From the NCBI GenBank assembly GCA_032718475.1, contig JAUCBJ010006287.1:1-42612 (forward strand): a stretch of DNA of 42,612 nt. The letters are read 5' to 3'. Made by a program: the position numbers and the translations under genes. Origin of the DNA: Nemertoderma westbladi. Its lineage: Eukaryota; Animalia; Xenacoelomorpha. The notes under the pieces are model-generated. The model searched no databases. It was given only the letters and a program-made list of their open reading frames with translations, and was not told where the DNA came from. Of the stretch, positions 1,453 to 41,765 are shown piece by piece (the first letter of the stretch is position 1; each line of letters opens with the position of its first letter).

Positions 1453-2697
1453 TTAGGTGCGTAAGTTGAAACGAGTTTCGCCCAGACGGAAAAGGAATTT
1501 GTTTGGGAGGCGTATAAGTGAATTGAGAGCGGCGGACTTATACAGATCAGCTGGCCCCCCCTGCTGGTACCGGTCCCAACAGATCTGGACAAGTTTAACC
1601 GTGTGTACATCGTGGGTTACATCGCTAATCACATCCTCTTTTATCTCCTCCCAAGATTTCGAATCGAGAACCTCCTTAGACAGAACAGGTTCGCCAGACA
1701 CATTGGACACGCCTTCAGCTATACACCAGATGGCTAGCGATATGAGGTAGGATCGAACCATCATGTTGATGTGATTGATGTTGGTAATAACTGGTAGAAC
1801 CTGCCTCAAGGCCCAAGCTGAAGTTACGCAGTGCAGCAACACAAAATCGTTAGCCCTCGTGCCTGTGCTTGAGTTGTATAACATCGTAGCCATATCGATT
1901 AAATGGTCGCCTATTGTGGTAGCGATATCTACAGTGGCAGACTCGTTTTCGAAAGGAAACGTTATAGAGTTAATAACGTTTAATACTGGTCTAACACAGT
2001 TGGGAGTAGAAAATAATTCATCGAAATTATTTTTCATATTATCATACGGCCAATAGTATTCTTCGAGAGAAAGATTGGGTTGAAGGGAGGTTAGGACTTC
2101 TACTAACTCTGGGTTTGTAGTAACGGATAGCAGATTTTGAACAACTGAGATAAAATTAGAAGGGCCTTGGGCTAAAGGTTGGGACATTACGTCATCCGGT
2201 AGGTTTATAGGTATGTTGTGGAAGTGCAGGAATGTTAATCCTTCTACGATTACACGCGGATTCTTTACCGTCTGACCGTAACCAACCTGGATAATCCCGT
2301 GTAACAAATTTCCAGCCATCCCCTTAACTAACGACGGTGCTTCCTGCCTAATAAGTTCGTCGGTTGATCCTAACTTTTCTAACAAACTTCTGTAGTACTT
2401 AACCAACGGGTAATACTCTGACTCTGCTCCGAGGTACCGCAGACTATCTTCTTTGCTCATTGGCGGTGCGCTGTCAATCTCGGCATTGTACGCATTCGGA
2501 TCAAAATGAAGGCGTTTCGAGTAACGGGAAGCGAATACAGCTATTCGCTCGGTTGTGGCGCCCAATCGGTGTAGGGCAATAATGCCGTGCGTAAGGTGTG
2601 TGGTATGGTGTCTACCCAAACCATCAAGATAGTCAACATAGAAATGTTCCGTTGAATGACTATTAAGGATTTGATCAATGCTTGAAACCGAATCCAT
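1453..2697 (-). CDS. Questin oxidase-like (DUF4243/AflY-like) oxidoreductase, single ORF, 414 aa
   Basis: Long ORF with the His-containing blocks I recognise from this family: HLTHGIIALHRLGA, LLHGIIQVGYG, DFVLLHCVTSAWALR, DVHTVKLV. Family assigned from recalled motifs. Confidence 0.8.
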   Translation of the reverse strand: MDSVSSIDQILNSHSTEHFYVDYLDGLGRHHTTHLTHGIIALHRLGATTERIAVFASRYSKRLHFDPNAYNAEIDSAPPMSKEDSLRYLGAESEYYPLVKYYRSLLEKLGSTDELIRQEAPSLVKGMAGNLLHGIIQVGYGQTVKNPRVIVEGLTFLHFHNIPINLPDDVMSQPLAQGPSNFISVVQNLLSVTTNPELVEVLTSLQPNLSLEEYYWPYDNMKNNFDELFSTPNCVRPVLNVINSITFPFENESATVDIATTIGDHLIDMATMLYNSSTGTRANDFVLLHCVTSAWALRQVLPVITNINHINMMVRSYLISLAIWCIAEGVSNVSGEPVLSKEVLDSKSWEEIKEDVISDVTHDVHTVKLVQICWDRYQQGGPADLYKSAALNSLIRLPNKFLFRLGETRFNLRT

Positions 2698-2730
2698 TAT
2701 AATAACAAATATAGCGTATTAGACAATAAG

Positions 2731-7689: not shown

Positions 7690-8790
7690 CTATCTATATG
7701 TTTTAGAACATGATATTTTTTATTTCGGGAACAGTTCCACCCGTGCCAACATTTTCGTTGCTTTTTTTCAACAAATTTTCATGCTTTTTTTTTCTTGATA
7801 AATGTTCTAGAACTTTGAAAAAAGTTCTAGAACATTTTAATTATGAATTTTCGAAAAAAAAATTATTATAAAAATTGTTCAATTTATTATTTTTTATGCT
7901 ATTTTGCATGGTTTTTTCTATTTATAAGAGTTCTAGAACATTTATTGAATGTTCTAGAACATATACCAAATGTTCTAGAACATTTTTATTAACAATTTTC
8001 GATAAAAAAAATTATAGAATATTTGTTCTTTTAAAAAATTATCAAAATTATTGTTTTGGAATACAGAACAACTAACCATAACGGTAACATTCTAGAACAT
8101 TTTTTTTAATGTTAGCTAGGGCTGGTATTGAATACGTAGGCCTACACCATAATGGCATCAATAGTCGATCGTCGACGTCTATCGATATCTATTTTTACTA
8201 CCTATAATTATAAATTATTATTTGAGTACATAAAATTACTAGATATATATGTTAATTATACAAAAAAGTGTTAAAAAAACAAAAAATAATTAAAAATAAC
8301 ATTACAACATTAAAAAGTAGTAGCTAGTAAACTATACACATTTTAGAGCAAAATTAAAATGTTGGCACGGGGGTACTAGTGTGTTATAGGTACACCCCCC
8401 CCTCAATTTTTTTTACTAGCTAGTTTTTGCTATTTCTTTTTATGAAATGTTCTAGAACATGAGATGCATTTGAAAAAAATAATAAAATGTTCTAGAACTA
8501 ATATTTTTTGTTCTAGAACAAATTTTAAAAAAAGCTTACAAATGATATTTTTTGTTAGTATTTTTTTATTTGATGTCAAGGAAATTGAATAGCAAAACCT
8601 AGCTAGTAAAAAAAATTTGAGGTGGGTTTGGCTTTCCCGGGCACTCTGGGATTGTTCACAATTACGATTTTTTTAAATTTAGATATACAAACGGGTTTGG
8701 TTATAATATGCGATTTAGGCCCTAAAAATATTTTATTTTTCTAAAAAGTATTTGTTCTAGATTATTTAAATACATTTAAACTTTATCTAT
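7690..8790. mobile_element. AT-rich decayed transposon region with many gttctagaac palindromes and internal inverted repeats
   Basis: IR pairs cccgtgccaacatttt (~7740) / aaaatgttggcacggg (~8357) and cctcaattttttttactagctag (~8401) / ctagctagtaaaaaaaatttgagg (~8599). More than 10 ttctagaa sites. Confidence 0.5.
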
Positions 8791-8889
8791 AGAACATTAA
8801 TTAATTTAAAAAAAGGCAAAAAGCGGCACTGGCGTGTGTCAATCGGTACCACCAGCTACATCATGTGGTGTATCAATACGTTTCAAAAA

Positions 8890-9477
8890 ATGTTACTGCT
8901 ACTGCTGATGATTAGTTTAGGAACATCGATAGCAAATGGGATATTGTGCTATGATACTGGTAATGTCGCTAACCCTGATAGGGAAAACCCCAATTGGTAC
9001 CAGAAATGCACCGGCAGTGACTATGAAGATTGCTTTTCGCAAATGAAGTCCGACGAAATTAAATCATCATCATCTGACGGATTAAAAATTAACGCGAATT
9101 TTAACGGAAGTCCTAATGATTACAATGACGAGTACTGCTTTTGGATCTACGCACACAAAGAAAATCACATAAGAAGGGGAGCTGACAATCTATATTGGAA
9201 ATGCAAAGCCCCAACTGAGAGCGAACCAGCGCCTGGTAAATGTACTGACTACGGATTCAAGGTAAATAGTCAGGGCACCGGTCTAGGAATAGCGGGCGAG
9301 GACAGCGAGTGTTCGTATTACTGTTGCAACACTGATTTTTGTAACAGCGAGAAAAACATGAGAAAAATACTTAATAGAGAACCAATAACAACAACAACGA
9401 GCTCAAGCGCAAACAGATCATTCTCACTAAAAGGTAGCGCTGCAATAATGTGTATCGCGTTGATGCGATTATTTTAA
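8890..9477 (+). CDS. Secreted, probably GPI-anchored Ly6/uPAR (three-finger)-like protein, single ORF
   Basis: Signal peptide MLLLLLMISLGTSIANG, then ILCY, 10 Cys ending in CCNTDFCN, a Thr/Ser stalk and a hydrophobic C-terminal tail. The track start at 8836 is a GTG; ATG 8890 (or 8863) is more plausible. Confidence 0.8.
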   Translation: MLLLLLMISLGTSIANGILCYDTGNVANPDRENPNWYQKCTGSDYEDCFSQMKSDEIKSSSSDGLKINANFNGSPNDYNDEYCFWIYAHKENHIRRGADNLYWKCKAPTESEPAPGKCTDYGFKVNSQGTGLGIAGEDSECSYYCCNTDFCNSEKNMRKILNREPITTTTSSSANRSFSLKGSAAIMCIALMRLF

Positions 9478-13217: not shown

Positions 13218-16028
13218 TCAAAAGGGCAATTTACACTGCTGGCGTAAGTCGAGTGAGAATAAATGTCGCATTGTGGGACGTCCATGGGGACAATTCCAGG
13301 GGCAGTCCATGTCGGACATGTGTCGGACAATACGGGACATTTCGGTAGCGGAAAGCGCCGACCCAATCATAACGGACCTGCGACAGGCGCGAGAAGCCAA
13401 CATCTGGGACACCCGGGACGGCCTTAATGTCCCGGACATTGCGTCCGATGGTGTCCCGGACAGCATAAATACGAGTTCATTGACCTCCTCGGAACCGAAA
13501 CTCCAATTCCCGGATTCCGGGACCGCGGTCAGCCGGATCCGATCGTGACTTGTCAACCCGGAATCATCAATATGGAAGTAGAATCCGTTGTTATGGAATA
13601 CATCCAGGTTGTCCCTGACGACCATCTCATTGGCTGGGGTCAGTTCGAGACCTTTCGGCGTCAGGAGCTTCTGACTCTCGATGTTTGTTTCTCTTTGTAA
13701 AAACTCGTAATTGTATTTTTCGTCGCTGGCGTGTTGATCCACGATAAATAGATCGTTATTGAGTCGCGCGACAATGAATCCGAGGTTGAACTGTCCGACA
13801 ACCGACATCTCCCTAAAGGAATCCTTCATAACCGACGCCGACAACTCGCTCTCAGCTTGTCGATTGTCGGTAGGATTTATCTTTGCGAGGAAACGGCGGC
13901 TCTCGCTAACGGAAACTTCGCTACTCGAGGATAAATTACATCTTGCGAAATTATTCGACATTTTAGCGAAGGAGAATTCTACCGTCTGTGAATGTCTGTT
14001 TGCGACCTGTAGGTCGGGTGTTTCGTTTAACCTAACGCGTTTTCGAGGAGGAGGTGTGTCGGTGGGTGTGTGCGGGTTAATACGGGGGGAATAGTCGCCG
14101 GCGCCGCGGCTGGTACCGAACGTTGAGACGGATGAGTAGCTGGTTGGTTTATCGACTAAATCGGGACCCACTACGTAGATTTCTTTGTCTTCTGAAGGAA
14201 CTACAACTCTGTCCGGAGGATTAAACTCACAGGTAACATCTGTGTACCCATTATTACTACTAGTACCTTCCACTTCAACACAAGACGCGTTAGTACCCTT
14301 ATCAATGTTTATTGTGGAATTTTCCGCAGTTATAGGAACATCAGTAGATTCTCCCCTCAGTATATGTACTAGTGTGTCCTCACTGGTACCATCCAATGTT
14401 ACGTGGGTGTCAATGTAACTAACTGAAGTCGCGTTACAGTTGGGGATGTGAGTAACGTCTGCCCCTACACTGGGTGGTGTTGCGACGTCGAAGTTAAATG
14501 TTTGGTTGTCTGGGTGTGAGCTGGGAGTTACGGGTGGGGATTCGCACTGTGGGACGGGAGGTGATGTCGGAGGGTGACTGCCAGTGGCCGAAGGTATCGG
14601 GTGGGAACTCTGTAACGTTGAGTTAGGTAAGTCCTCAATGCCGGGAGTAGAATAATCCGAGGTGGATGTAAGAAATGGGATCATAGACCATTGCTTGGAT
14701 GAATCGTACGAAACGGGACGAGATAAGTGATTGGGTTGCGTTGGGGTGGATACAGATGTAAAGCTTTCAACTGAATTCGATGTTTCGTTACTTTCAGATA
14801 TTTCTTCAACATTATTATTAGATTTGCCGACAACTAAGTTAATATTCAAACTATCATCTCTCCTGGCCTCAATTACTTCGCAATCGTTTAGTTGACTGAG
14901 TTTATCCAGCGACTGCGATGGTATCAGTGCGTGATTCTCATACTTATTCAACTCAGCATCGAACATGGATCGCAGAGAGAACTTCAGAGTCGCAAGAATC
15001 CGCTTCTCTTCTCCTATAAATACCTGACGTTTATCGGGAGTCACGTTCACGTCAACCGAACCCGCGGTGGCCTCGATGTTGAGGATAACGAACGGCGACT
15101 GGTGTCGGTTGAAGGAACGGTAAACCTCGTTCACCAACCGACACAATTTCGCGTTGTCGCAGGGCCGTTTGTTAATAAACACGAACTGTCTATCAGGTGT
15201 GGACCGCCCGCACCCGTGAACAGAAGACGATATCCAACCGGTTACAGAGAAGTTGCAATCCTCTACAACTTCGTACAAACCGAACTCGTTGAGAACTTCT
15301 AGACTGGGGACAACCTGTTTGATTTCCAATAAATTCTTTACCTGGTTCACTCCGAATATAGAAATAATCGCTTCCTTGATACTGGAACCTCCTTGACACG
15401 AAGTAACGTTGGACTTTACGCCGGTGGTGGTTGTATTGGAGCACGAAATGCGCAGACCGCGGTTCACCAACGCATACGCCTGTATTATATTAACCGTCTT
15501 ACCGAATTCCCTTTTTATAGACTTAGTGAATTCCTTTAGTCTGACCGGTAAGGAAGCGAACAACGACTTCACGGTGACCGTGGTCCCGATATTTCGTGCT
15601 GTGTTCGTAGTTTCCGTGAGTTCTCCACAACGATTGTACGCTAATCTACATCCGAAGAGATCGACACTCGTTCTCGTTGTTATCGTAACCTCTCCGACGG
15701 CGCACAACGAACTTATTGCCTCGCCACGGAATCCGTAGCTAGACATATCCTGGAGGTCAGTAAATACTTTCAGTTTGGAAGTCGCGTGCTTGACCGCAAC
15801 CGAGGCAAAATCTTCTTTGTTTATTCCGCGTCCGTTATCCACGACTTCTATCAGTTGGAGTCCGTAGTTTTTAAACCGAATATCGATATTTGTGGCGTTC
15901 GCGTCCAGACTGTTCTCCAATAGTTCTTTAACAGCGGAGGCGATGTTTACGATAACCTGACCGGAACATATTCTGTGTACACTCTGTCTGTCTAGTGGTT
16001 GGATAGTGCAGCCGGTAGATTCAGACAT
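13218..16028 (-). CDS. PMS2: Mismatch repair endonuclease PMS2 (MutL-alpha subunit), uninterrupted CDS, 936 aa
   Basis: GHKL ATPase motifs VKELLENSLDA, DNGRGI, YGFRGEA and GTTV; VDVNVTPDKRQ; long low-complexity linker; endonuclease motif DQHASDEKYNYE; ACR and CPHGRP motifs. Confidence 0.96.
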   Translation of the reverse strand: MSESTGCTIQPLDRQSVHRICSGQVIVNIASAVKELLENSLDANATNIDIRFKNYGLQLIEVVDNGRGINKEDFASVAVKHATSKLKVFTDLQDMSSYGFRGEAISSLCAVGEVTITTRTSVDLFGCRLAYNRCGELTETTNTARNIGTTVTVKSLFASLPVRLKEFTKSIKREFGKTVNIIQAYALVNRGLRISCSNTTTTGVKSNVTSCQGGSSIKEAIISIFGVNQVKNLLEIKQVVPSLEVLNEFGLYEVVEDCNFSVTGWISSSVHGCGRSTPDRQFVFINKRPCDNAKLCRLVNEVYRSFNRHQSPFVILNIEATAGSVDVNVTPDKRQVFIGEEKRILATLKFSLRSMFDAELNKYENHALIPSQSLDKLSQLNDCEVIEARRDDSLNINLVVGKSNNNVEEISESNETSNSVESFTSVSTPTQPNHLSRPVSYDSSKQWSMIPFLTSTSDYSTPGIEDLPNSTLQSSHPIPSATGSHPPTSPPVPQCESPPVTPSSHPDNQTFNFDVATPPSVGADVTHIPNCNATSVSYIDTHVTLDGTSEDTLVHILRGESTDVPITAENSTINIDKGTNASCVEVEGTSSNNGYTDVTCEFNPPDRVVVPSEDKEIYVVGPDLVDKPTSYSSVSTFGTSRGAGDYSPRINPHTPTDTPPPRKRVRLNETPDLQVANRHSQTVEFSFAKMSNNFARCNLSSSSEVSVSESRRFLAKINPTDNRQAESELSASVMKDSFREMSVVGQFNLGFIVARLNNDLFIVDQHASDEKYNYEFLQRETNIESQKLLTPKGLELTPANEMVVRDNLDVFHNNGFYFHIDDSGLTSHDRIRLTAVPESGNWSFGSEEVNELVFMLSGTPSDAMSGTLRPSRVSQMLASRACRRSVMIGSALSATEMSRIVRHMSDMDCPWNCPHGRPTMRHLFSLDLRQQCKLPF

Positions 16029-16213
16029 GATTTCTGTTCAATGATATAAATTATAAAATATACCTAGCAACAATTATTGGAGCTGACAGTCTGTGGATCA
16101 TGAAAAATAAAGCAGGATACCGGTAATGCCTCATTGTCTTTCTGGTCTTGATGGTTGCGTAGTTCTTACCAGTGTACCCATTCATCACCAGTAGTACTAG
16201 AACAGCATAACAG

Positions 16214-18881
16214 CAAGGTGTACTAAATAACAGGTCATGCAGCGAGAGGATTGCTGAAATTAGCGTGGGCCGATTTTTTCCCAATTTATGGCACTTTTTT
16301 CATAATATTTCCTTAGAAACTTCTTTATGTGCTACTTTGGTTAGGTGGATATGATGACTATGATTCTTAGCAATGTAATAAAATGTCTTTCTGGAATTTT
16401 TATCTTGTAGTTGCCAAGGTAAACCGGGTGCAAATTTCAAACTTTGCCGCTTGTATTTCAAGGCGGCAAGGGATTCTTTCCTTGAGATTTCGTAGGTGAG
16501 TAAAGGGAATAAAACACTATCAAAATATTTTACATTTGAATTTGTTTAAATTCCCGTTGCCATGGAAATAAGTATAATGAAAAGTATGAAAAATTGTCTA
16601 CCAATTCTATAAAACACCATTTTTATTCGGTTTGTCAGTGTAAATAATAAGTTAAAATTGCCAACATTTTATTTTATAATTCGTCAATTGTGAATCATAT
16701 TTCTAAAAGTCAATATTTGCCAATAAACTAAACCGTCCAATCAGAGAGCAAGACCTGTGATACCATGATTGTGACATTCTAGAATATTAAACTTCGGTTA
16801 GCAATTATTAGAAATAAAGGACAATCACCAGGCATGTTTGTTGAAAATTATATAAGTAGTAAATAGTAGCCCAATTTCAATCTGGCGGTCATAATGGGAA
16901 ATTATCGTAATTCCCGTCACCATGGAAACGGGATTGAAACAAATTTAAATGTAAAATATTTTGATAGACTTTTATTCCCTTCACTCATATACCAAATCTC
17001 AAGGAGAGAATCCATTGCCGCCTTGAAATACAAGCGGCAAAGTTTGAAATTTGCACCCGGTTTACCTTGGCAACTACAAGATAAAAATTCCAGAAAGACA
17101 TTTTATTACATTGCTATGAATCATAATCATCATATCCACCTAACCAAAGTAGCATATAAGATGTTTCTAAGGAAATATTATGAAAAAAGTGCCATAAATT
17201 GGGAAAAAATCGGCCCACGCTAATTTCAGCAATCCGCTCGCTGCATGACCTGTGGGGCGAGCCACGAAGTGAGTGAGCCTTAGCGTAGTGGTACCATTAA
17301 TCAACCTGTCGTTCTGTCGTTCTGTCGCGTCCAATTTTAAACGTTAATAACTCAGCCAATCTTTGATGAAATCTATCCAAACTTGGTACACATGTTGTTT
17401 GGCAAAAGTTTAGAAATTTTCCAAGTAGAATTTCCGTGTGGCCTTCGAGAAGCTAAGATAATAGCAGTTAATTAGTTAATTAAGTTGATTACGGTAAAAA
17501 CACCATTTTCAACCTGCCTTTTAAAGGAAATTAATTGTTTTACAGTATAAGATTTAAATAATTATACTTAAAAATTATACAGATGTAATCCACATACGCC
17601 ATTCTATTATAGTTTTTAATTAGTTCAAGTGATTTGCTTTATTAATTGTGTCTTTAATTGATCTAAAGTAATTAAAACGTCATAAAAAATTGATTCTCAT
17701 TAAATACTGCTCATTTATTGGCTAACATGCTGGTACGATGGAAGGATGTGTGTGTAAGGCAGCTATTTGCTGGGAATGATTATTGGTCAAGTCTCTGCTG
17801 GTGTGGAGCTAGCTGGCTTGGAGTTGTGGCTGTAGACTAACCAGAGAGGAATTGTACTGTAATAGGCAACCAGTATTGCTATTCCAGCCCAGACATCATT
17901 CTTGAAATCCAACATCCCAACATCCTTCCTGTATTGACTCTACTATAAGTGTTGTATTGCTCTCAGGTAAATGACAGATATAATAACATAAATACAATCC
18001 ATGGCATGGCTGTTGTGTAGGCTTCTGAAATAGTTTATTCCACAATGTATATGTCTGGTTATTTTTTAATTGAATTTTTGCAAAGTAGTAAAATTAATGT
18101 TCTTAAAAATAATATTATTATTTTATATGTAACCTAGGAAATTAGCTACATTTTTTCGCTGCAGCTTTAAGAGTGTACATTGATTTAATATTATTTCAAT
18201 ACCCATATTACTACATCGGCATAAGATGCGTTGGCGTTGTATCACACATCTCCACATATCACACATCTCCACATAGATGTATCAACAGTTACTCGCACAG
18301 TTTCGAAACTTCGCATAGTTATAACTGTATAAAGATCGTCAGTCTGCGTTTAGGAAAAATATTTTATGACAAAACAGGACAAGCGACGAGCGCAACGAGG
18401 CATATAATGAAGACGAGTACTGCGTTGACTAAATTGTTATATAAACCACCTGGCTTCACATATTGATCGCATCCCTAGTTATTATTATTATAAAGATCGT
18501 CCTAGCCTGCGTTTAAGAAATATATTTAAATACAAAACAGGACGAACGCAAAGAGGCTTATAATGAAAACGAGTACTGCGTTTATTATATTCCTATAAAC
18601 CACCTGGCTTTGCATATTTAACGTGCGATTGGAAATAAGTTCGTGCTACCCTTCCGTGGGTGGTAGATGTCCCGGTTATGTATTGGTGGTTGGGAAGGGT
18701 GGTGGGGGGGGGGATTAAAAGGGGTGAACACGTTCTGTCCGCCTTTCTTTGATTGATTGGTGGTGTGGGTAAATTTCTCAAAACCTGATTTTGTGATACA
18801 GTCGCTCAATTTTAATTTGTATCTAATAACTGGGCCTCGTGCTGCGCGAAGGCCCCACGAACGTGTTATTTATACACCTTG
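16214..18881. mobile_element. Long-TIR non-autonomous element (P-element-like ends), right TIR split by a nested insertion
   Basis: ~350-bp arms 16214-16567 and ~16912-17253. The right TIR resumes after the insert (tattta-tacaccttg, 18867-18881), matching left caaggtgtactaaataacagg. Flanks cataacag / tagaacag match 6/8, a degenerate 8-bp TSD. Confidence 0.8.
17253..18866 (+). mobile_element. Helentron/DINE-like non-autonomous element, copy 1
   Basis: 5' end tggggcgagccacg followed by ctgtcgtt microrepeats; 3' end gtgctgcgcgaaggccccacgaacgtgt. Sub-terminal IR gtggggc/gccccac, no TSD, inserted at a TT site in the host TIR. Confidence 0.7.
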
Positions 18882-27519: not shown

Positions 27520-27882
27520 TAACTCATTTTATCCGAGGTGAAGACCCTTACATAACATTAACTCATTTTATTATATTATCCGAGGTGAAGACCCTTACAT
27601 AACATTAACTCATTTTATCCGAGGTGAAGACCCTTACATAACATTAACTCATTTTATTATATTATCCGAGGTGAAGACCCTTACATAACATTAACTCATT
27701 TTATTATATTATCCGAGGTGAAGACCCTTACATAACATTAACTCATTTTATCCGAGGTGAAGACCCTTACATAACATTAACTCATTTTATTATATTATCC
27801 GAGGTGAAGACCCTTACATAACATTAACTCATTTTATTATATTATCCGAGGTGAAGACCCTTACATAACATTAACTCATTTT
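27520..27882 (+). repeat. 39/47-bp tandem repeat, 8 copies, centred on ccgag|gtgaag
   Basis: Unit taactcatttta(ttatatta)tccgaggtgaagacccttacataacat, in two length variants. Confidence 0.93.
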
Positions 27883-28234: not shown

Positions 28235-28498
28235 GTAAACTGTTAGCTCGTGATGTCTTTTATTCATAAATTTTTTTATGCGACTATATATTTATGCATC
28301 TATTATAGGAAGGGATCTTGGGGTCTTAGCCTCGAATGATAAGTTTATTTTACCGAAAATAACTTATCTTTTATTGGCGCAATTGTAGGACTAATCCCAC
28401 CACCTAATCCCATCACATGCGTACTTTTTAACCGGGTAGTGTACAAATTTAGGAATCGCGTAATTTTTTCTTCAAATTAATATCTCATATCTCTCCAA

Positions 28499-28541
28499 AC
28501 CACGTACGCGTTTCGACCTTACTGGGTCTCATCAGCGTGGT
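28499..28541 (-). ncRNA. Minimal type I hammerhead ribozyme, copy 1
   Basis: Minus strand reads accacg CUGAUGA gacc cagtaa ggtc GAAA cgcg UA cgtggt: intact core, 6-bp stem I, 4-bp stem II and a short palindromic stem III (acgcgt). Confidence 0.92.
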
Positions 28542-28601
28542 GTCGGATTCGAACCTGGGACCTCGAGGTGGAAGCCGGGACTACAACCACTAGGCCACAG
28601 G
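28536..28601 (-). promoter_or_regulatory. tRNA-derived Pol III internal promoter cassette, copy 1
   Basis: Minus strand has A box tggcctagtgg and B box ggttcgaatcc at tRNA-like spacing, running straight into hammerhead stem I. Confidence 0.75.
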
Positions 28602-28923
28602 TTCTTGAGATATGGAGTATTAATTTCAAAGCCAGCTGCCATTTTATTAGCCCCTGATTTTTTTTTTTTTTTTTTTTTATTGATAGTAACAATGTGTTGG
28701 CAAGCTGTATTTTTCGAGGTGTTTGTTATTATACATCTATTATAGGAAGGGATCTTGGGGGTCTTAGCCTCGAATGATAAGTTTATTTTACCGAAAATAA
28801 CTTATCTTTTATTGGCGCAATTGTAGGACTAATCCCATCACATGCGTACTTTTTAACCGGGTAGTGTACAAATTTAGGAATCGCGTAATTTTTTCTTCAA
28901 ATTAATATCTCATATCTCTCCAA

Positions 28924-28966
28924 ACCACGTACGCGTTTCGACCTTACTGGGTCTCATCAGCGTGGT
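28924..28966 (-). ncRNA. Minimal type I hammerhead ribozyme, copy 2
   Basis: Identical to copy 1, offset by 425 bp. Confidence 0.92.
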
Positions 28967-29026
28967 GTCGGATTCGAACCTGGGACCTCGAGGTGGAAGC
29001 CGGGACTACAACCACTAGGCCACAGG
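28961..29026 (-). promoter_or_regulatory. tRNA-derived Pol III cassette, copy 2
   Basis: Identical to copy 1. Confidence 0.75.
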
Positions 29027-29542
29027 TTCTTGAGATATGGAGTATTAATTTCAAAGCCAGCTGCCATTTTATTAGCCCCTGATTTTTTTTTTTTTTTTTT
29101 TTATTGATAGTAACAATGTGTTGGCAAGCTGTATTTTTCGAGGTGTTTGTTATTATACATCTATTATAGGAAGGGATCTTGGGGGTCTTAGCCTCGAATG
29201 ATAAGTTTATTTTACCGAAAATAACTTATCTTTTATTGGCGCAATTGTAGGACTAATCCCATCACATGCGTACTTTTTAACCGGGTAGTGTACAAATTTA
29301 GTATATTAACAAACAAACAAAAGGTATAATAACAAACACCTCGAAAAATACAGCTTGCCAACACATTGTTACTATATATTTATGGGCAGTTCGTAGATAG
29401 TTCAATTTTGCTCCTCAATTCAGTTTTACTTAAAATAGATAAAATTTAACTACAACCACAATATATATTATTGTGTTACTGTTCGGTGTATTTATTAATA
29501 AATATTTTAGTATTTATTGTTTGCATTAATTATTTCTTTTAG

Positions 29543-29686
29543 GGTTTGTACGTAAAAGAGATCCAATGGGCGGACGTGAAGGGATGCGTTGTTATAGAGA
29601 AAGAAGGCAATCTATGTTTGTATCGGAATAAAGCTACCGGGTTGTTTACAGCAGTTCTCGGCCGTCCAGATGTTCCCAACTCCAAG
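29543..29686 (+). CDS. PLA2G6: PLA2G6-like coding exon 2 (GLYVKEIQWADVKGCVVIEKEGNLCLYRNKATGLFTAVLGRPDVPNSK)
   Basis: Acceptor tttcttttag, donor aag|gtgagt, 144 nt, phase 0/0. Resembles the recalled vertebrate segment FRVKEV..AD..REEGQLILFQN. Confidence 0.85.
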
Positions 29687-32600
29687 GTGAGTGCGTGGTG
29701 GTTGGAATAAAGTTACGGATTGTTTACAGCCGTTCTCGGCCGTACAGATGTTCCCAACTCCAAGGTGAGTGCGTGGTGGTTGGAATAAAAATACCGGATT
29801 GTTTACTGCAGTTCTCGGCCGTACAGATGTTCCCCCCTCCAAGGTGAGTGCGTGGTGGTTGGAATAAAGCTACGGATTGTTTACAGCAGTTCTCGGCCGT
29901 CCAGATGTTCCCAACTCCAAGGTGAGTGCGTGGTGGTTGGAATATAGCTACGGGTTGTTTACTGCAGTTCTCGGCCGTACAGATGTTCCCCCCTCCAAGG
30001 TGAGTGCGTGGTGGTTGGAATAAAGCTACCGGGTTGTTTACAGCAGTTCTCGGCCGTACAGATGTTCCCAACTCCAAGGTAAGTGCGTGGTGGTTGGAAT
30101 AAAAATACCGGATTGTTTACTGCAGTTCTCGGCCGTACAGATGTTCCCCCCTCCAAGGTGAGTGCGTGGTGGTTGGAATAAAGCTACGGATTGTTTACAG
30201 CAGTTCTCGGCCGTACAGATGTTCCCAACTCCAAGGTGAGTTGCTTGGTGGTTGGAATAAAGCTACCGGATTGTTTACAGCAGTTCTCGGCCGTACAGAT
30301 GTTCCCAACTCCAAGGTGAGTGCGTGGTGGTTGGAATAAAGCTACCGGATTGTTTACAGCAGTTCTCGGCCGTACAGATGTTCCCAACTTTTAAGGTGAG
30401 TGCGTGGTGGTTGGAGTAAAGCTACCGGATTGTTTACAGCAGTTCTCGGCCGTACAGATGTTCCCAACTCCAAGGTGAGTGCGTGGTGGTTGGAATAAAG
30501 CTACCGGATTGTTTACAGCAGTTCTCGGCCGTACAGATGTTCCCAACTCCAAGGTGAGTTGCTTGGTGGTTGGAATAAAGCTACCGGATTGTTTACAGCA
30601 GTTCTCGGCCGTACAGATGTTCCCAACTCCAAGGTGAGTGCGTGGTGGTTGGAATAAAGCTACCGGATTGTTTACAGCAGTTCTCGGCCGTACAGATGTT
30701 CCCAACTCCAAGGTGAGTGCGTGGTGGTTGGAATAAAGCGACCGGATTGTTTACAGCAGTTCTCGGCCGTACAGATGTTCCCAACTCCAAGGTGAGTGCG
30801 TGGTGGTTGGAATAAAGCTACCGGATTGTTTACAGCAGTTCTCGGCCGTACAGATGTTCCCAACTCCAAGGTGAGTGCGTGGTGGTTGGAATAAAGCGAC
30901 CGGATTGTTTACAGCAGTTCTCGGCCGTACAGATGTTCCCAACTCCAAGGTGAGTTCCATGGTGGTTGGAATAAAGCTACCGGAAGGTTTACAGCAGTTC
31001 TCGGCCGTACAGATGTTCCCAACTCCAAGGTGAGTGCGTGGTGGTTGGAATAAAGCTACGGGTTGTTTACAGCAGTTCTCGGCCGTACAGATGTTCCCAA
31101 CTCCAAGGTGAGTTCCATGGTGGTTGGAATAAAGCTACCGGATTGTTTACAGCAGTTCTCGGCCGTACAGATGTTCCCAACTCCAAGGTGAGTGCGTGGT
31201 GGTTGGAATAAAGCTACGGGTTGTTTACAGCAGTTCTCGGCCGTACAGATGTTCCCAACTCCAAGGTGAGTGCGTGGTGGTTGGAATAAAGCTACCGGAT
31301 TGTTTACAGCAGTTCTCGGCCGTACAGATGTTCCCAACTCCAAGGTGAGTTGCTTGGTGGTTGGAATAAAGCTACCGGATTGTTTACAGCAGTTCTCGGC
31401 CGTACAGATGTTCCCAACTCCAAGGTGAGTGCGTGGTGGTTGGAATAAAGCTACCGGATTGTTTACAGCAGTTCTTGGCCGTACAGATGTCCCCAACTCC
31501 AAGGTGAGTGCGTGGTGGTTGGAATAAAGCTACCGGATTGTTTACAGCAGTTCTCGGCCGTACAGATGTTCCCAACTCCAAGGTGAGTGCGTGGTGGTTG
31601 GAATAAAGCTACCGGATTGTTTACAGCAGTTCTTGGCCGTACAGATGTCCCCAACTCCAAGGTGAGTGCGTGGTGGTTGGAATAAAGCTACCGGATTGTT
31701 TACAGCAGTTCTTGGCCGTACAGATGTCCCCAACTCCAAGGTGAGTGCGTGGTGGTTGGAATAAAGCTACGGATTGTTTACAGCAGTTCTCGGCCGTACA
31801 GATGTTCCCCCCTCCAAGGTGAGTGCGTGGTGGTTGGAATAAAGCTACCGGATTGTTTACAGCAGTTCTTGGCCGTACAGATGTCCCCAACTCCAAGGTG
31901 AGTGCGTGGTGGTTGGAATAAAGCTACCGGATTGTTTACAGCAGTTCTCGGCCGTACAGATGTTCCCAACTCCAAGGTGAGTTCCATGGTGGTTGGAATA
32001 AAGCTACCGGATTGTTTACAGCAGTTCTCGGCCGTACAGATGTTCCCAACTCCAAGGTGAGTGCGTGGTGGTTGGAATAAAGCTACCGGATTGTTTACAG
32101 CAGTACTCGGCCGTACAGATGTCCCCAACTCCAAGGTGAGTTCCGAAGTGGTTGGAATAAAGCTACCGGATTGTTTACAGCAGTTCTCGGCCGTACAGAT
32201 GTTCCCAACTCCAAGGTGAGTGCGTGGTGGTTGGAATAAAAACACCGGATTGTTTACAGCAGTTCTCGGCCGTACAGATGTTCCCAACTCCTAGGTGAGT
32301 GCGTGGTGGTTGGAATAAAGCTACGGATTGTTTACAGCAGTTCTCGGCCGTACAGATGTTCCCAACTCCAAGGTGAGTGCCTGGTGGTTGGAATAAAGCG
32401 ACCGGATTGTTTACAGCAGTTCTCGGCCGTCCAGATGTTCCCAACTCCAAGGTGAGTGCGTGGTGGTTGGAATAAAGCTACCGGGTTGTTTACAGCAGTT
32501 CTTGGCCATACAGATGTTCCCAACTCCAAGGTGAGTGCGTGGTGGTTGGAATAAAGCTACCGGGTTGTTTACAGCAGTTCTCGGCCGTACAGATGTTCAC

Positions 32601-35600
32601 AACTCCAAGGTGAGTGCGTGGTGGTTGGAATAAAGCTACCAGATTGTTTACAGCAGTTCTCGGCCGTACAGATGTTCCCAACTCCAAGGTGAGTGCGTGG
32701 TGGTTGGAATAAAGCTACCGGATTGTTTACAGCAGTTCTCGGCCATACAGATGTTCCCAACTCCAAGGTGAGTGCGTGGTGGTTGGAATAAAGCTACCAG
32801 ATTGTTTACAGCAGTTCTCGGCCGTACAGATGTTCCCAACTCCAAGGTGAGTGCGTGGTGGTTGGAATAAAGCTACCGGATTGTTTACAGCAGTTCTCGG
32901 CCGTACAGATGTTCCCAACTCCAAGGTAAGTGCGTGGTGGTTGGAATAAAGCTACCGGGTTGTTTACAGCAGTTCTCGGCCGTACAGATGTTCCCAACTC
33001 CAAGGTGAGTTACATACGTGGTGGTTGGAATAAAGATACCGGATTGTTTACAGCAGTTCTCGGCCGTACAGATGTTCCCAACTCCAAGGTGAGTTACATA
33101 CGTGGTGGTTGGAATAAAGCTACCGGATTGTTTACAGCAGTTCTCGGCCGTACAGATGTTCCCAACTCCTAGGTGAGTTGCTTGGTGGTTGGAATAAAGC
33201 TACCGGGTTGTTTACAGCAGTTCTCGGCCGTACAGATGTCCCCAACTCCAAGGTGAGTGCGTGGTGGTTGGAATAAAGCTACCGGATTGTTTACAGCAGT
33301 TCTCGGCCGTCCAGATGTTCCCAACTCAAAGGTGAGTGCGTGGTGGTTGGAATAAAGCTACCGGGTTGTTTACAGCAGTTCTCGGCCGTACAGATGTCCC
33401 CAACTCCAAGGTGAGTGCGTGGTGGTTGGAATAAAGCTACCGGATTGTTTACAGCAGTTCTCGGCCGTCCAGATGTTCCCAACTCAAAGGTGAGTGCGTG
33501 GTGGTTGGAATAAAGCTACCGGGTTGTTTACAGCAGTTCTCGGCCGTACAGATGTTCCCAACTCCAAGGTGATTTGCGTGGTGGTTGGAATAAAGCTACC
33601 GGGTTGTTTACAGCAGTTCTTGGCCATACAGATGTTCCCAACTCCAAGGTGAGTGCGTGGTGGTTGGAATAAAGCTACCGGGTTGTTTACAGCAGTTCTC
33701 GGCCGTCCAGATGTTCCCAACTCCAAGGTGAGTGCCTGGTGTTTGGAATCAAGCTACCGGATTGTTTACAGCAGTTCTCGGCCGTACAGATGTTCCCAAC
33801 TCCAAGGTGAGTGCGTGGTGGTTGGAATAAAGCGACCGGATTGTTTACAGCAGTTCTCGGCCGTCCAGATGTTCCCAACTCCAAGGTGAGTGCGTGGTGG
33901 TTGGAATAAAGCTACCGGGTTGTTTACAGCAGTTCTCGGCCGTACAGATGTTCACAACTCCAAGGTGAGTGCGTGGTGGTTGGAATAAAGCTACCAGATT
34001 GTTTACAGCAGTTCTCGGCCGTACAGATGTTCCCAACTCCAAGGTGAGTGCGTGGTGGTTGGAATAAAGCTACCGGATTGTTTACAGCAGTTCTCGGCCA
34101 TACAGATGTTCCCAACTCCAAGGTGAGTGCGTGGTGGTTGGAATAAAGCTACCAGATTGTTTACAGCAGTTCTCGGCCGTACAGATGTTCCCAACTCCAA
34201 GGTGAGTGCGTGGTGGTTGGAATAAAGCTACCGGATTGTTTACAGCAGTTCTCGGCCGTACAGATGTTCCCAACTCCAAGGTGAGTTACATACGTGGTGG
34301 TTGGAATAAAGATACCGGATTGTTTACAGCAGTTCTCGGCCGTACAGATGTTCCCAACTCCAAGGTGAGTTACATACGTGGTGGTTGGAATAAAGCTACC
34401 GGATTGTTTACAGCAGTTCTCGGCCGTACAGAAGTTCCCAACTCCTAGGTGAGTTGCTTGGTGGTTGGAATAAAGCTACCGGGTTGTTTACAGCAGTTCT
34501 CGGCCGTACAGATGTCCCCAACTCCAAGGTGAGTGCGTGGTGGTTGGAATAAAGCTACCGGGTTGTTTACAGCAATTCTCGGCCGTACAGATGTTCCCAA
34601 CTCCAAGGTGAGTGCGTGGTGGTTGGAATAAAGCTACCGGATTGTTTACAGCAGTTCTCGGCCGTACAGATGTCCCCAACTCCAAGGTGAGTGCGTGGTG
34701 GTTGGAATAAAGCTACCGGATTGTTTACAGCAGTTCTCGGCCGTCCAGATGTTCCCAACTCAAAGGTGAGTGCGTGGTGGTTGGAATAAAGCTACCGGGT
34801 TGTTTACAGCAGTTCTCGGCCGTACAGATGTTCCCAACTCCAAGGTGATTTGCGTGGTGGTTGGAATAAAGCTACCGGGTTGTTTACAGCAGTTCTTGGC
34901 CATACAGATGTTCCCAACTCCAAGGTGAGTGCGTGGTGGTTGGAATAAAGCTACCGGGTTGTTTACAGCAGTTCTCGGCCGTACAGATGTTCCCAACTCC
35001 AAGGTGAGTGCGTGGTGGTTGGAATAAAGCTACGGATTGTTTACAGCAGTTCTCGGCCGTACAGATGTTCCCAACTCCAAGGTGAGTTACATACGTGGTG
35101 GTTGGAATAAAGATACCGGATTGTTTACAGCAGTTCTTGGCCATACAGATGTTCCCAACTCCAAGGTGAGTGCGTGGTGGTTGGAATAAAGCTACCGGGT
35201 TGTTTACAGCAGTTCTCGGCCGTACAGATGTTCCCAACTCCAAGGTGAGTTACATACGTGGTGGTTGGAATAAAGCTACCGGGTTGTTTACAGCAGTTCT
35301 TGGCCATACAGATGTTCCCAACTCCAAGGTGAGTGCGAGGTGGTTGGAATAAAGCTACCGGGTTGTTTACAGCAGTTCTTGGCCATACAGATGTTCCCAA
35401 CTCCAAGGTGAGTGCGTGGTGGTTGGAATAAAGATACCGGATTGTTTACAGCAGTTCTCGGCCGTACAGATGTTCACAACTCCAAGGTGAGTGCGTGGTG
35501 GTTGGATTAAAGCTACCGGATTGTTTACAGCAGTACTCGGCCGTACAGATGTTCCCAACTCCAAGGTGAGTTACATACGTGGTGGTTGGAATAAAGATAC

Positions 35601-35981
35601 CGGATTGTTTACAGCAGTTCTCGGCCGTACAGATGTTCCCAACTCCAAGGTGAGTTGCGTGGTGGTTGGAATAAAGCTACCGGGTTGTTTACAGCAGTTC
35701 TTGGCCATACAGATGTTCCCAACTCCAAGGTGAGTGCGTGGTGGTTGGAATAAAGCTACCGGGTTGTTTACAGCAGTTCTTGGCCATACAGATGTTCCCA
35801 ACTCCAAGGTGAGTGCGTGGTGGTTGGAATAAAGCTACCGGATTGTTTACAGCAGTTCTCGGCCGTCCAGATGTTCCCAACTCCAAGGTGAGTTGCTTGG
35901 TGGTTGGAATAAAGCTACGGATTGTTTACAGCAGTTCTCGGCCGTCCAGATGTTCCCAACTCCAAGGTGAGTTGCTTGGTG
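29625..35981 (+). repeat. 79-bp tandem array, ~80 copies, made of the last 62 nt of exon 2 plus 17 nt of donor/intron
   Basis: Unit ggaataaagctaccggattgtttacagcagttctcggccgtacagatgttcccaactccaag|gtgagtgcgtggtggtt, with 78-84 bp variants. It accounts for all ORF-track entries between 29.6 and 35.9 kb. Confidence 0.97.
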
Positions 35982-36055
35982 GAAGCTAATCTGCGTTGCG
36001 AAGTTTAGTTTTCACCTCCCGTTTGCGTTCGTGTTATATCTTTTTCCTATTTCAG

Positions 36056-36221: not shown

Positions 36222-36571
36222 GTAAATAAAGTAAACCTTACTCAGTTGCAGGTAAATAAAGTAAACCTTACTCAGTTGCAGGTAAATAAAGTAAATCTTA
36301 ATCAGGTCTAGGTAAATAAAGTAAATCTTAATCAGGTGTAAGTAAATAAAGTAAGCCTGAATCAGGTCTAGGTAAATAAAGTAAACCTTAATCAGGTCTA
36401 GGTAAATAAAGTAAACCTTAATCAGGTGTAGGTAAATAAACTAAACCTGAATCACGTTTAGGTAAATAAAGTATGCCTGAATCAGGTCTAGGTAAATAAA
36501 GTAAACCTTAATCAGGTCTGTAAATAAAGTATACCTGAATCAGGTCTAGGTAAATAAAGTAAACCTTAATC

Positions 36572-37534
36572 ATGTCTCCAAGGAGACAAGGTGTCCTCCA
36601 AGGAGACACACTTGCACCAATCTTGTTCATTATTGTGGTTGACTATGTTCTACGCATGTCCTTAGATCATCATAATGATGATGGGGTGATGATAACTCCA
36701 CCTACTGGCTCCAGAAGTCGAGGAAATCCTGCCAAGTACCTAACTGATCTAGACTTTGCTGATGACTTAGGAGTACTCTCACAATCATTAGAGGGAGCCC
36801 AACGGCTCCTCACCTCATTAGAACATGCTGCTTTTAGTGTTGGTCTTTTTATTAACTCCAGAAAGACCAAAATTCTGACAGTTAACTTTGAAAGTCTTCA
36901 GCAAGTCTCTGATCGGATGAGCATAAGCTCAAAGGATGGTATGCTTGAGCATGTGGACGACTTCTGTTACCTGGGATCATGGATCCGGAAGTCAGTTGAG
37001 GACCTTCGAATACGTAAGGGAAAGGCATGGGCAGCCTTGAATAGGCTTTCCAGGATTTGGAAGTCACCGAGAATTAATCGGAAACTTAAGGTCCGATTAT
37101 TTAGAGCAGCAGTAGTTCCAGTACTCCTCTACGGGAGTCCATGCTGGGCTCTAACTGCTGAGGACACCAAATCTCTGGATGGCACATTCACAAGAATGCT
37201 ACGCCGGGTTCATTGTGTCAAGTACAATGCACACATCTCCAACCAGACACTATATAACATTGGAGGTGTCTCATTGGTTCCCCCAAGCTTGACACTAGAA
37301 CAAAATCGCTTCCGCTTTGCAGGACATTGCTTTCGCCGTGAGGACCAGCCAGTGCATAATCTTGTACTTTGGCAGCCTCATGGAGTGAATAAGCATGGTG
37401 GACAGCCCATGACTTTCTTGAGACGCATCTTAAAGGACACTGGCCTTAAAGATGCGGATGATCTAGCAAATGTCATGGGTGATAGGGAGTTGTTGCGGTG
37501 CAATTTTGTTGACAAGCCGGCACAGCATTCTTAA
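36572..37534 (+). pseudogene. C-terminal half of a LINE reverse transcriptase, frame still open
   Basis: GVLQGDTLAPILF, LDFADD, INSRKTK, FCYLGS, VPVLLYGS and FAGHCFR. The ATG comes from the TSD; endonuclease and N-terminal RT are missing. Confidence 0.9.
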
Positions 37535-40788: not shown

Positions 40789-41765
40789 ACACGTTCGTGG
40801 GGCCTTCGCGCAGCACGAGGCCCAGTTATGAGATACAAATTAAAATTGAGCGACTGTATCACAAAATCAGGTTTTGAGAAATTTACCCACACCACCAATC
40901 AATCAAAGAAAGGGGGACAGTACGTGTTCACCCCTTTTAATCCCCCCCCCCCACCCGTCCCAACCACCAATACATAACCGCGACATCTACCACCCACGGA
41001 AGGGTAGCACGAACTTATTTCCAATCGCACGTTCAATATGCAAAGCCAGGTGGTTTATAGGAATATAATAAACGCAGTACTCGTATTCATTATAAGCCTC
41101 GTTGCGTTCGTCCTGTTTTGTATTTAAATATATTTCTTAAACGCAGGCTAGGACGTTCTTTATAATAATAATAACTAGGGATGCGATCAATATGTGAAGC
41201 CAGGTGGTTTATATAATAATTTAGTCAACGCAGTACTCGTCTTCATTATATGCCTCGTTGCGCTCGTCGCTTGTCCTGTTTTGTTATAAAATATTTTTCC
41301 TAAACGCAGACTGACGATCTTTATACAGTTATAACTATGCGAAGTTTCGAAACTGTGCGAGTAACTGTTGATACATCTATGTGGATATGTGTGATATGTG
41401 GAGATGTGTGATACAACGCCAACGCATCTTATGCCGATGTAGTAATATGGGTATTGAAATAATATTAAATTAATGTACACTCTTAAAGCTGCAGCGAAAA
41501 AATGTAGCTAATTTCCTAGGTTACATATAAAATAATAATATTATTTTTAAGAACATTAATTTTACTACTTTGCAAAAATTCAATTAAAAAATAACCAGAC
41601 ATATACATTGTGGAATAAACTATTTCAGAAGCCTACACAACAGCCATGCCATGGATAGTATTTATGTTATGATATCTGTCATTCACCTGAGATAGCAATA
41701 CAACATTTATAGTGAATTTAAAGAATGCTGTCTGGGCTGGAATAGCAATACTGGTTGTCTATTAC
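40789..41765 (-). mobile_element. Helentron-like element, copy 4 (3' ~1 kb), closely matching 17859-18866 in inverted orientation
   Basis: Begins acacgttcgtggggccttcgcgcagcac. ORF-track peptides 18173..18466 and 41187..41480 are almost identical. Confidence 0.85.

What the first reader, a model, noticed from the sequence alone, without database searches (positions are those of the whole stretch)
28297..29384. Retrozyme-like element fusing a tRNA-type Pol III promoter to a hammerhead ribozyme, inserted as a multimer
Seen (minus strand): A box, then B box, then immediately accacg-CUGAUGA-gacc(cagtaa)ggtc-GAAA-cgcg-UA/cgtggt, repeated at a 425-nt interval. The ~2.3-mer lies between copies of a TSD of up to 14 bp. 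Established: minimal type I hammerheads with a palindromic stem III cleave as dimers and occur in Penelope-like elements and in animal non-LTR retrozymes or satellites such as schistosome Sm-alpha and newt satellite 2. Inference: self-cleavage after GUA (28505/28504 and 28930/28929) would release a ~425-nt monomer able to circularise, and rolling reverse transcription of a circle would explain a permuted multimer within one TSD. Caveats: each unit has an internal ~22-nt A tract and a T4 that could end Pol III transcription.
Basis: partly seen in the sequence, partly recalled or inferred. Interest (0 to 1): 0.85.

Follow-up and report, generated by a model that had tools for sequence, protein, structure and literature searches.

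The report
Penelope-riding ribozyme SINE in tandem
This is a young, multi-copy, non-coding 425-base repeat in an animal genome that joins a tRNA-type promoter motif to a hammerhead ribozyme motif, and its insertion scar matches Penelope-type retrotransposons, which likely copy it, possibly from a circular RNA.

Summary
Minus-strand A and B boxes at tRNA spacing run into a type I hammerhead, repeated at 425 nt; 2.33 near-identical units lie inside an exact 14-bp TSD. Partial tandem, inverted 5' copy and 'tail' are the published signature of Penelope-like elements (PLEs). Public DNA contigs show a multi-copy, head-to-tail family whose shown ends cluster at the two tail borders, not at the A tract or cleavage site. 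Best reading: a non-autonomous, likely Pol III-transcribed retrozyme mobilised by a PLE through internal priming. The template crossed the cleavage site twice intact; circle versus uncleaved multimer is undecided, and cleavage, expression and the partner PLE are not shown. The promoter-plus-hammerhead fusion is already known (Schistosoma Sm-alpha), and PLE dependence of animal retrozymes is already proposed. New here: a further lineage with a direct PLE insertion footprint. New variant of a known kind; interest 0.5.

The parts
29371..29384 (.). TSD copy at the element's 5' side (14 bp, 86% AT); its last 5 nt in element sense also match the start of the inverted tail
29324..29375 (+). Inverted 52-nt tail: exact reverse complement of unit segment 28683-28734 / 29107-29158
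   Evidence: (I1, I2); junction into right flank seen in contigs of runs X1 and X2
29302..29323 (+). Stuttered partial re-copy of the end of the inverted tail (15 nt at 93%) joining it to the forward part
   Evidence: (D11, I7, I8)
28878..29301 (-). Unit 1 of the forward part (424 nt, 5'-truncated phase)
28453..28877 (-). Unit 2 (425 nt; identical to unit 1 except one extra A in the A tract)
28297..28452 (-). Partial unit 3 (13-nt duplication, 1-nt deletion); ends at the unit position equal to 28734, the tail's 5' border
28970..29022 (-). tRNA-type Pol III promoter motif, copy 1: A box 29022-29012, B box 28980-28970; degenerate tRNA-Gly(TCC)-like head
   Evidence: ARAGORN only at 70% threshold; ARAGORN default and Rfam negative
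28545..28597 (-). tRNA-type Pol III promoter motif, copy 2
28919..28972 (-). Type I hammerhead motif, copy 1; distal stem I is predicted to use the last 3 nt of the B box; predicted cut 28930/28929
28494..28547 (-). Type I hammerhead motif, copy 2; predicted cut 28505/28504
28683..28734 (-). Tail segment of the unit (also 29107-29158), the inferred interval between two reverse-transcription start sites
28658..28678 (-). Internal A21 tract (A20 at 29083-29102); short and interrupted in the best-supported family joint
   Evidence: table 5c
28471..28629 (-). 23-nt imperfect inverted arms (28471-28493 / 28607-28629; also 28896-28918 / 29032-29054) enclosing head and hammerhead; predicted to bring the ends of a cleaved monomer together
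28283..28296 (.). TSD copy at the element's 3' side

Best explanation
It is a non-coding, multi-copy tandem element with a tRNA-type promoter motif and a type I hammerhead motif, likely transcribed by Pol III and likely inserted by the enzyme of a Penelope-like retrotransposon acting in trans. Inferred cycle: (1) Pol III reads from an A/B box through a leaky T4 into the next unit. (2) Two hammerheads pair through ACGCGU and cut out a 425-nt monomer, which a host ligase would close; the monomer or circle cannot form stem III and so would be stable. (3) The PLE protein binds near the tail, nicks AT-rich DNA on both strands 14 bp apart and primes internally at two sites about 50 nt apart. The first start (28734 equivalent) copies 2.33 units across two intact cleavage sites. 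The second start (28683 equivalent, 5-nt microhomology to the target) copies only the tail back to the first start, leaving it inverted at the 5' end. Shown: anatomy, TSD, inverted tail, multi-copy head-to-tail family, end clustering among the shown rows. Inferred: Pol III use, cleavage, circle, PLE as partner. PLE mobilisation about 0.8; circle as the template about 0.5.
For: The inverted segment ends at the same unit coordinate as the 3' end (1-nt overlap); a random end falls within 2 nt of it at about 5/425. PLE papers describe this layout: partial tandem, adjacent inverted 5' copy, tail, TSD of 8-10 bp (PMC8557442, PMC3846280 passages), and two internal RT starts bounding the tail, on both strands of AT-rich DNA, downstream of the hammerhead (PMC11167929). 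Family data: of 11 shown 3'-side loose-end rows (18 rows shown, 410 hidden), 4 rows (44 contigs) follow the unit to about 28730 and then diverge, 2 rows (11 contigs) stop at 28683-4, none at the cut site. One X1 contig joins a 5'-truncated copy at 28808 to an inverted tail-region sequence. An X2 joint (depth 1838) breaks exactly at 28734; 5 of the 16 listed X1/X2 pieces are 400-2050-nt contigs at or below single-locus depth that leave the element at 29373-29380. One head-to-tail joint has depth 4557 against 36.7 for this locus's flank, about 120-fold. The window allele at 29003 holds at most 0.1% of summed depth (about 3 single-locus depths in X1 and in X2) yet both heads carry it, so the units share one rare template. 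Folding z-scores are -3.4 and -4.9.
Against: No autonomous PLE was seen: no genome is held and a recalled-motif scan of the window found none. The tail is 47-52 nt, longer than the published 30-40, only 65% A+C against 56% for the unit, and its hairpin is weak (-1.5 kcal/mol). The double hammerhead is only about 0.16 of the ensemble in the two-unit model and 0.00 in the insert-wide model. Loop 1 differs from the HH9 consensus. Each unit has a T4 that could stop Pol III. In the anole PLE the hammerhead was not needed for insertion, and only 1 of 9 Xenopus retrozyme dimers cleaved in vitro (PMC11167929; bioRxiv 2026.07.22.740005). Loose-end tables show only top rows. Rows at 29375 also include contigs that simply continue along the unit. 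Summed depth is not a copy number.
Confidence: 0.62

Rival explanations
1. Same PLE-mobilised element, but no circle: the template is an uncleaved read-through transcript of a tandem source, or a 1.33-mer that was later duplicated in place; the hammerhead is a slow or vestigial inheritance from the PLE pseudo-LTR.
For: Low predicted double-hammerhead occupancy. Unprocessed RNA was the main PLE substrate in vitro (PMC11167929). Head-to-tail sources are abundant. Local duplication would also give shared rare alleles.
Against: A linear Pol III template would need about 1.1 kb or more through three T4 runs. The 29003 allele amounts to only about 3 single-locus depths, leaving little room for a homogeneous source array (soft, depth-based). 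One search lists core substitutions at 5% or more of depth in only one X6 contig and not in X1 or X2, consistent with youth or with selection.
Confidence: 0.3
2. The unit is only the pseudo-LTR or end fragment of an autonomous PLE, and this is a 5'-truncated PLE insertion with no separate life cycle.
For: PLE-type junctions; retrozymes match pLTRs in Xenopus (bioRxiv 2026.07.22.740005); long X6 contigs of 1.8-1.9 kb and high depth share 70-100 nt of the unit.
Against: The unit joins to itself head-to-tail at high depth in X1, X2 and X6, has no long ORF and carries its own A/B boxes.
Confidence: 0.1
3. An ordinary tRNA-derived SINE moved by a LINE, with a twin-priming 5' inversion (mechanism recalled from L1, not from a call) and a chance or local tandem.
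For: A/B boxes, A tract, 14-bp AT-rich TSD, microhomology at the inversion; a LINE-like RT fragment lies in the window.
Against: The 3' end is about 55 nt short of the A tract; shown family ends fall at the tail borders; the A tract is short and interrupted in the best-supported joint; the inversion stops exactly at the 3'-end coordinate.
Confidence: 0.07
4. A satellite spread at the DNA level, or an assembly artefact.
For: Sits between two satellite arrays; no empty allele among the shown rows.
Against: Exact 14-bp TSD; the inverted-tail-to-flank junction occurs with 0 differences in contigs of two studies (25-27 letters before 29375, under the tool's 31-letter bar for a bridge); many dispersed junctions.
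Confidence: 0.03

Closest known systems
Schistosoma Sm-alpha / Sj-alpha SINE-like hammerhead repeats (seen through PMC6765202 and PMC2770079 passages; Ferbeyre 1998 not held)
   Same: tRNA-derived Pol III promoter followed by a type I hammerhead, tandem copies, promoter left at the 3' end of the cleaved monomer, high copy number.
   Different: Head resembles tRNA-Gly(TCC) weakly, against tRNA-Gln for Sm-alpha. A PLE-type inverted tail and fixed ends are not described for Sm-alpha in the passages read. Sequence homology was not tested; cleavage is shown there, not here.
Animal non-LTR retrozymes (Cervera and de la Pena 2020, PMC7229834; review PMC7761336; Li et al. 2026 preprint)
   Same: 150-450-bp tandem units with a type I hammerhead, GC under 50%, TSD over 4 bp, weak helix III, predicted self-paired monomer, PLEs proposed as partner.
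   Different: The review says these seem to lack promoters and any motif pointing to the partner; this one has A/B boxes and a PLE-type tail scar. Circular RNA is shown for those, not here.
EN+ Penelope-like elements (Penelope/Poseidon; PMC11167929, PMC8557442, PMC3846280)
   Same: Partial tandem, inverted 5' copy, tail between two inferred RT starts downstream of a hammerhead, AT-rich target, TSD.
   Different: No RT or GIY-YIG ORF; tail about 50 nt rather than 30-40; TSD 14 rather than 8-10 bp; Pol III-type head.
Non-autonomous Chlamys elements such as MRC1 (PMC8557442 passage)
   Same: Non-coding PLE passengers with multicopy head-to-tail insertions.
   Different: Green algal; the paper says this PLE clade lacks canonical hammerheads; no tRNA head in the passage read.

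Membership tests
Animal non-LTR retrozyme | Tandem 150-450-bp units, each with a type I hammerhead | tested here: met
   425-nt units, a hammerhead in both complete heads; head-to-tail joints in 3 of 4 runs as table rows and as one closed contig in the fourth
Animal non-LTR retrozyme | Non-coding, GC under 50%, TSD longer than 4 bp | tested here: met
   No ORF of 100 aa or more at the locus; GC 165/425; TSD 14 bp. PBS/PPT were not searched.
Animal non-LTR retrozyme | Self-cleavage as monomer or dimer | not testable with these tools
   Only folding models: dimer 0.16 or 0.00, monomer 0.00
Animal non-LTR retrozyme | Expressed as linear and circular RNA | not testable with these tools
   Only contigs were available; no raw RNA reads
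Animal non-LTR retrozyme | No internal promoter (a generalisation in PMC7761336, with Sm-alpha an exception) | tested here: not met
   A and B boxes at tRNA spacing
Sm-alpha/Sj-alpha family | tRNA-type Pol III promoter directly upstream of a hammerhead, in tandem | tested here: met
Sm-alpha/Sj-alpha family | Sequence homology to Sm-alpha and tRNA-Gln-derived head | tested here: inconclusive
   No Sm-alpha sequence on hand; head called Gly(TCC) only at a lowered ARAGORN threshold; best Rfam hit HH9, two overlapping clan hits not shown
Autonomous EN+ PLE | ORF with telomerase-like RT and GIY-YIG endonuclease | tested here: not met
PLE-mobilised element | Partial tandem with adjacent inverted 5' copy | tested here: met
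   a second example in one X1 contig
PLE-mobilised element | 30-40-bp tail with ends at two fixed sites | tested here: inconclusive
   Two end clusters seen, but about 50 nt apart and from top rows only
PLE-mobilised element | Autonomous PLE in the host sharing the hammerhead-to-tail region | not testable with these tools
   No genome held
LINE-dependent tRNA SINE | 3' end at an A-rich or simple-repeat tail, monomeric insertions | tested here: not met
   3' end at 28297, A tract internal; multimer

The most novel reading that the evidence does not exclude
A self-promoting circular-RNA retroelement born by fusing a tRNA head to the hammerhead-to-tail cis-signal of a Penelope element: Pol III makes it, dimer hammerheads cut it, and the PLE enzyme rolls round the circle from one start while a second start writes the inverted tail. 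The B box doubles as part of the ribozyme stem. This insert would be a direct genomic footprint of PLE-driven rolling reverse transcription of a circRNA, arisen independently of Sm-alpha.
Probability: 0.35. Interest if true: 0.75.

Novelty: new variant of a known kind. Interest (0 to 1): 0.5.

Why it matters
Which enzyme mobilises animal retrozymes, how they are transcribed, and whether circles are true intermediates are stated as open in PMC7229834, PMC7761336 and the 2026 preprint, which rest on co-occurrence and pLTR similarity. A young, abundant family with its own promoter motif and a clean PLE-type scar gives an insertion-level argument and a ready substrate: promoter, ribozyme and tail can each be mutated. 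It also suggests how the PLE inverted tail arises, by a second primer copying back to the first start.

Tried and rejected
Whole host genome: none held, so copy number and partner could not be searched directly. Rfam at gathering scores: 0 hits; Rfam on the head alone: no tRNA hit; ARAGORN default: 0. Sequencing runs: no RNA holder listed. X3 (RNA is a guess, another organism label) holds one closed 441-nt contig of the unit, which tandem DNA or trace contamination would give as well, so it was not used. X7 (small share) laid 0 contigs on the tail stretch. Empty allele: none among 18 shown rows, 59 hidden; inconclusive. B-box-plus-hammerhead pattern scans gave 48 metagenome and 1 viral locus: 0 of 49 related to the unit (best BLAST E 0.49), 1 of 49 (L011) a convincing type I hammerhead, without a properly spaced A box. 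Exact hammerhead in viral contigs: 0. PMS2 search placed the host only as an animal far from listed species (listed hits 43-53% identity). Recalled GIY-YIG/PLE-RT motif scan of the window: 0. Earlier-finding look-ups by sequence and by place: nothing. Ferbeyre 1998 and Lunse 2017 not held. Rejected: the A tract as a poly(A) 3' end; 'minimal' hammerhead label; free permutation of ends.

Full report
Observation. The element lies on the minus strand of an animal genome window (intronless PMS2-like ORF, listed hits 43-53% to animal proteins; no whole genome held). An exact 14-bp TSD (28283-28296, 29371-29384; 86% AT) encloses 1074 nt. The forward part, 29301 to 28297, is 2.33 units. Units 1 and 2 are identical at 424 of 424 aligned positions and differ by one A in the A tract; the last partial unit has a 13-nt duplication and a 1-nt deletion. 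Each complete head has an A box and a B box 42 nt apart (2 pairs in the window, 1 in 300 shuffles), then a type I hammerhead (2 strict hits, 0 in 100 shuffles; Rfam HH9 26.6 bits, E 4.5e-4, under the gathering score). The head is called tRNA-Gly(TCC) only when ARAGORN's threshold is lowered to 70%, so tRNA ancestry rests mainly on the boxes. No other copy is in the window.

Between the upstream TSD and the forward part lie a 52-nt inverted copy of unit segment 28683-28734 (29324-29375) and about 22 nt that partly re-copy its end. The inverted piece starts with a 5-nt overlap with the TSD and stops at the very unit coordinate where the insert's 3' end lies; a random stop lands within 2 nt of that at about 5/425. 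At the 3' junction the target and the following unit sequence share 4 of the first 5 letters. PLE insertions are described as partial tandems with an adjacent inverted 5' copy and a 30-40-bp tail (PMC8557442, passages), with TSDs of 8-10 bp (PMC3846280, passages). A purified anole PLE nicks and extends both strands of AT-rich DNA and starts internally at two sites that bound the tail, downstream of its hammerhead (PMC11167929, parts 1-2 of 4). The same order holds here: hammerhead, about 200 nt, tail. Differences: this tail is 47-52 nt, only mildly A+C-rich (65% against 56%) and weakly structured.

The family. Of 12 listed runs, 7 hold the unit or part of it, in 5 studies. Laying the unit gave 1156, 3125, 1 and 72 contigs in X1, X2, X3 and X6. 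Head-to-tail joints across the A tract occur in X1, X2 and X6; the best has depth 4557 against 36.7 for this locus's unique flank in X1, about 120-fold, and its tract is short and interrupted, so the A tract is not a fixed poly(A) end. I infer hundreds to thousands of units; summed depth is not a copy number. Of 18 loose-end rows shown (410 hidden), 11 are on the 3' side: 4 rows (44 contigs) follow the unit to about 28730 and then diverge, 2 rows (11 contigs) stop at 28683-4, 5 rows (18 contigs) are elsewhere, none at the cut site. One X1 contig joins a 5'-truncated copy at 28808 to an inverted tail-region sequence, a second example of this architecture. On the stretch 29296-29600, loose ends behind 29373-29375 account for 30 of 68, 29 of 72 and 7 of 12 partly laid contigs in X1, X2 and X6. 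Some of these merely continue along the unit, but 5 of the 16 listed X1/X2 pieces are 400-2050-nt contigs at or below single-locus depth leaving at 29373-29380. One contig each in X1 and X2 matches 29351/29349-29600 with 0 differences, so the filled junction is unlikely to be an assembly artefact (25-27 letters before 29375, under the tool's 31-letter bar). No empty allele was among the shown rows.

One template. The window's alleles at 28737, 28898 and 29003 hold at most 0.3% of summed depth in X1 and X2; at 29003 that is about 3 single-locus depths in each run, yet both heads here carry it, and all three partial repeats share the 28737 allele. The units therefore derive from one rare template. 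That fits rolling synthesis on a circle, but also a small homogeneous source or local duplication.

Ribozyme. By PMC4209133 (passages) this is the canonical metazoan type I form, which needs a second copy to complete helix III. Models agree: stem III probability is 0.00 in a single-unit transcript and in a circular monomer; the strand-swapped double hammerhead is the MFE of a 567-nt two-hammerhead transcript but only about 0.16 of its ensemble, and 0.00 in an 832-nt model. The cut-to-cut monomer folds with its ends together (z -3.4); the head-plus-hammerhead region has z -4.9. The distal stem I is predicted to use the last three bases of the B box. Activity is unproven; 1 of 9 Xenopus dimers cleaved in the 2026 preprint (parts 1-3 of 5; its supplements are closed and may list similar families), and the anole hammerhead needed protein and was dispensable for insertion.

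Mechanism. Most likely: Pol III transcription through a leaky T4 (29221, 28797, 28359), dimer cleavage, ligation, then PLE-driven priming at two internal sites. A cleaved linear monomer offers only about 195 nt upstream of the first start, and this insert crosses the cut site twice without a seam, so the template was a circle, an uncleaved multimer, or a shorter insert later duplicated. I put PLE mobilisation at about 0.8 and the circle at about 0.5. LINE-type SINE movement, a bare pLTR and DNA-level spread fit worse (see rivals).

Comparison. Pol III promoter plus hammerhead in tandem is known for Schistosoma Sm-alpha (PMC6765202, passages; PMC2770079, passages; the primary paper was not held). 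Tandem type I hammerhead units with long TSDs are the non-LTR retrozymes, with PLEs proposed as partners (PMC7229834, abstract, passages, sections 13 and 17). A review says metazoan retrozymes seem to lack promoters and any motif pointing to their partner (PMC7761336, passages). PMC10886601 (passages) covers Pol III-bearing LTR passengers, not this. Nine full-text searches showed no title or opened passage describing a tRNA-headed hammerhead unit with a PLE inverted tail; most listed papers were not opened and the library lacks most subscription papers and Repbase. Two unchecked notes of this scan describe ribozyme-free, tRNA-headed, PLE-dependent tandems in another genome; they are leads, not support. 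No relative was found among 49 pattern hits in metagenome and viral contigs.

Verdict. A real, young, multi-copy element. It works like Sm-alpha and the animal retrozymes and bears a PLE-type scar; formal membership awaits cleavage and circRNA data. New variant of a known kind, interest 0.5.

Noticed in passing
window 13218-16037 (-): Uninterrupted 939-codon PMS2-like ORF; listed homologues are animal proteins at only 43-53% identity.
   Followed up: partly
window 29625-35982: 79-bp satellite, about 80 copies at 94% match, starting about 240 bp from the insert; a perfect 133-bp (47+39+47) minisatellite lies at 27529-27882 on the other side.
   Followed up: no
window 36563-37534 (+): C-terminal fragment of a LINE-like reverse transcriptase (RVT_1 E 1e-9, weak DUF6451), next to a 30-bp tandem array.
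   Followed up: partly
window 1453-2718 (-): Uninterrupted questin oxidase-like ORF (PF14027, E 5.6e-32) in an animal genome.
   Followed up: partly
window 8770-9477 (+): Cysteine-rich ORF with a hydrophobic N-terminus and no Pfam hit; its C-terminal cysteine motif recalls Ly6/three-finger proteins (recalled, untested).
   Followed up: no
window 18146-18466 and 41187-41507: Near-identical dispersed repeat, seen as two almost identical 106-aa frames.
   Followed up: no
L011 (reverse strand about 313-380 and 609-674): Marine metagenome contig with a well-formed type I hammerhead in a 68-nt segment repeated 296 nt away at 88%; possible retrozyme, unrelated to this unit.
   Followed up: partly
L007: 14 tRNA genes within 3 kb, probably a phage-like tRNA array.
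   Followed up: no
run X6, records 22 and 23: Contigs of 1914 and 1831 nt at high depth share only 70-100 nt of the unit, one with a broken hammerhead core; possible larger related elements.
   Followed up: no
window 28734/28820 equivalent, run X2: A joint of depth 1838 skips 28735-28819, breaking exactly at the tail border; a possible deleted subfamily.
   Followed up: no
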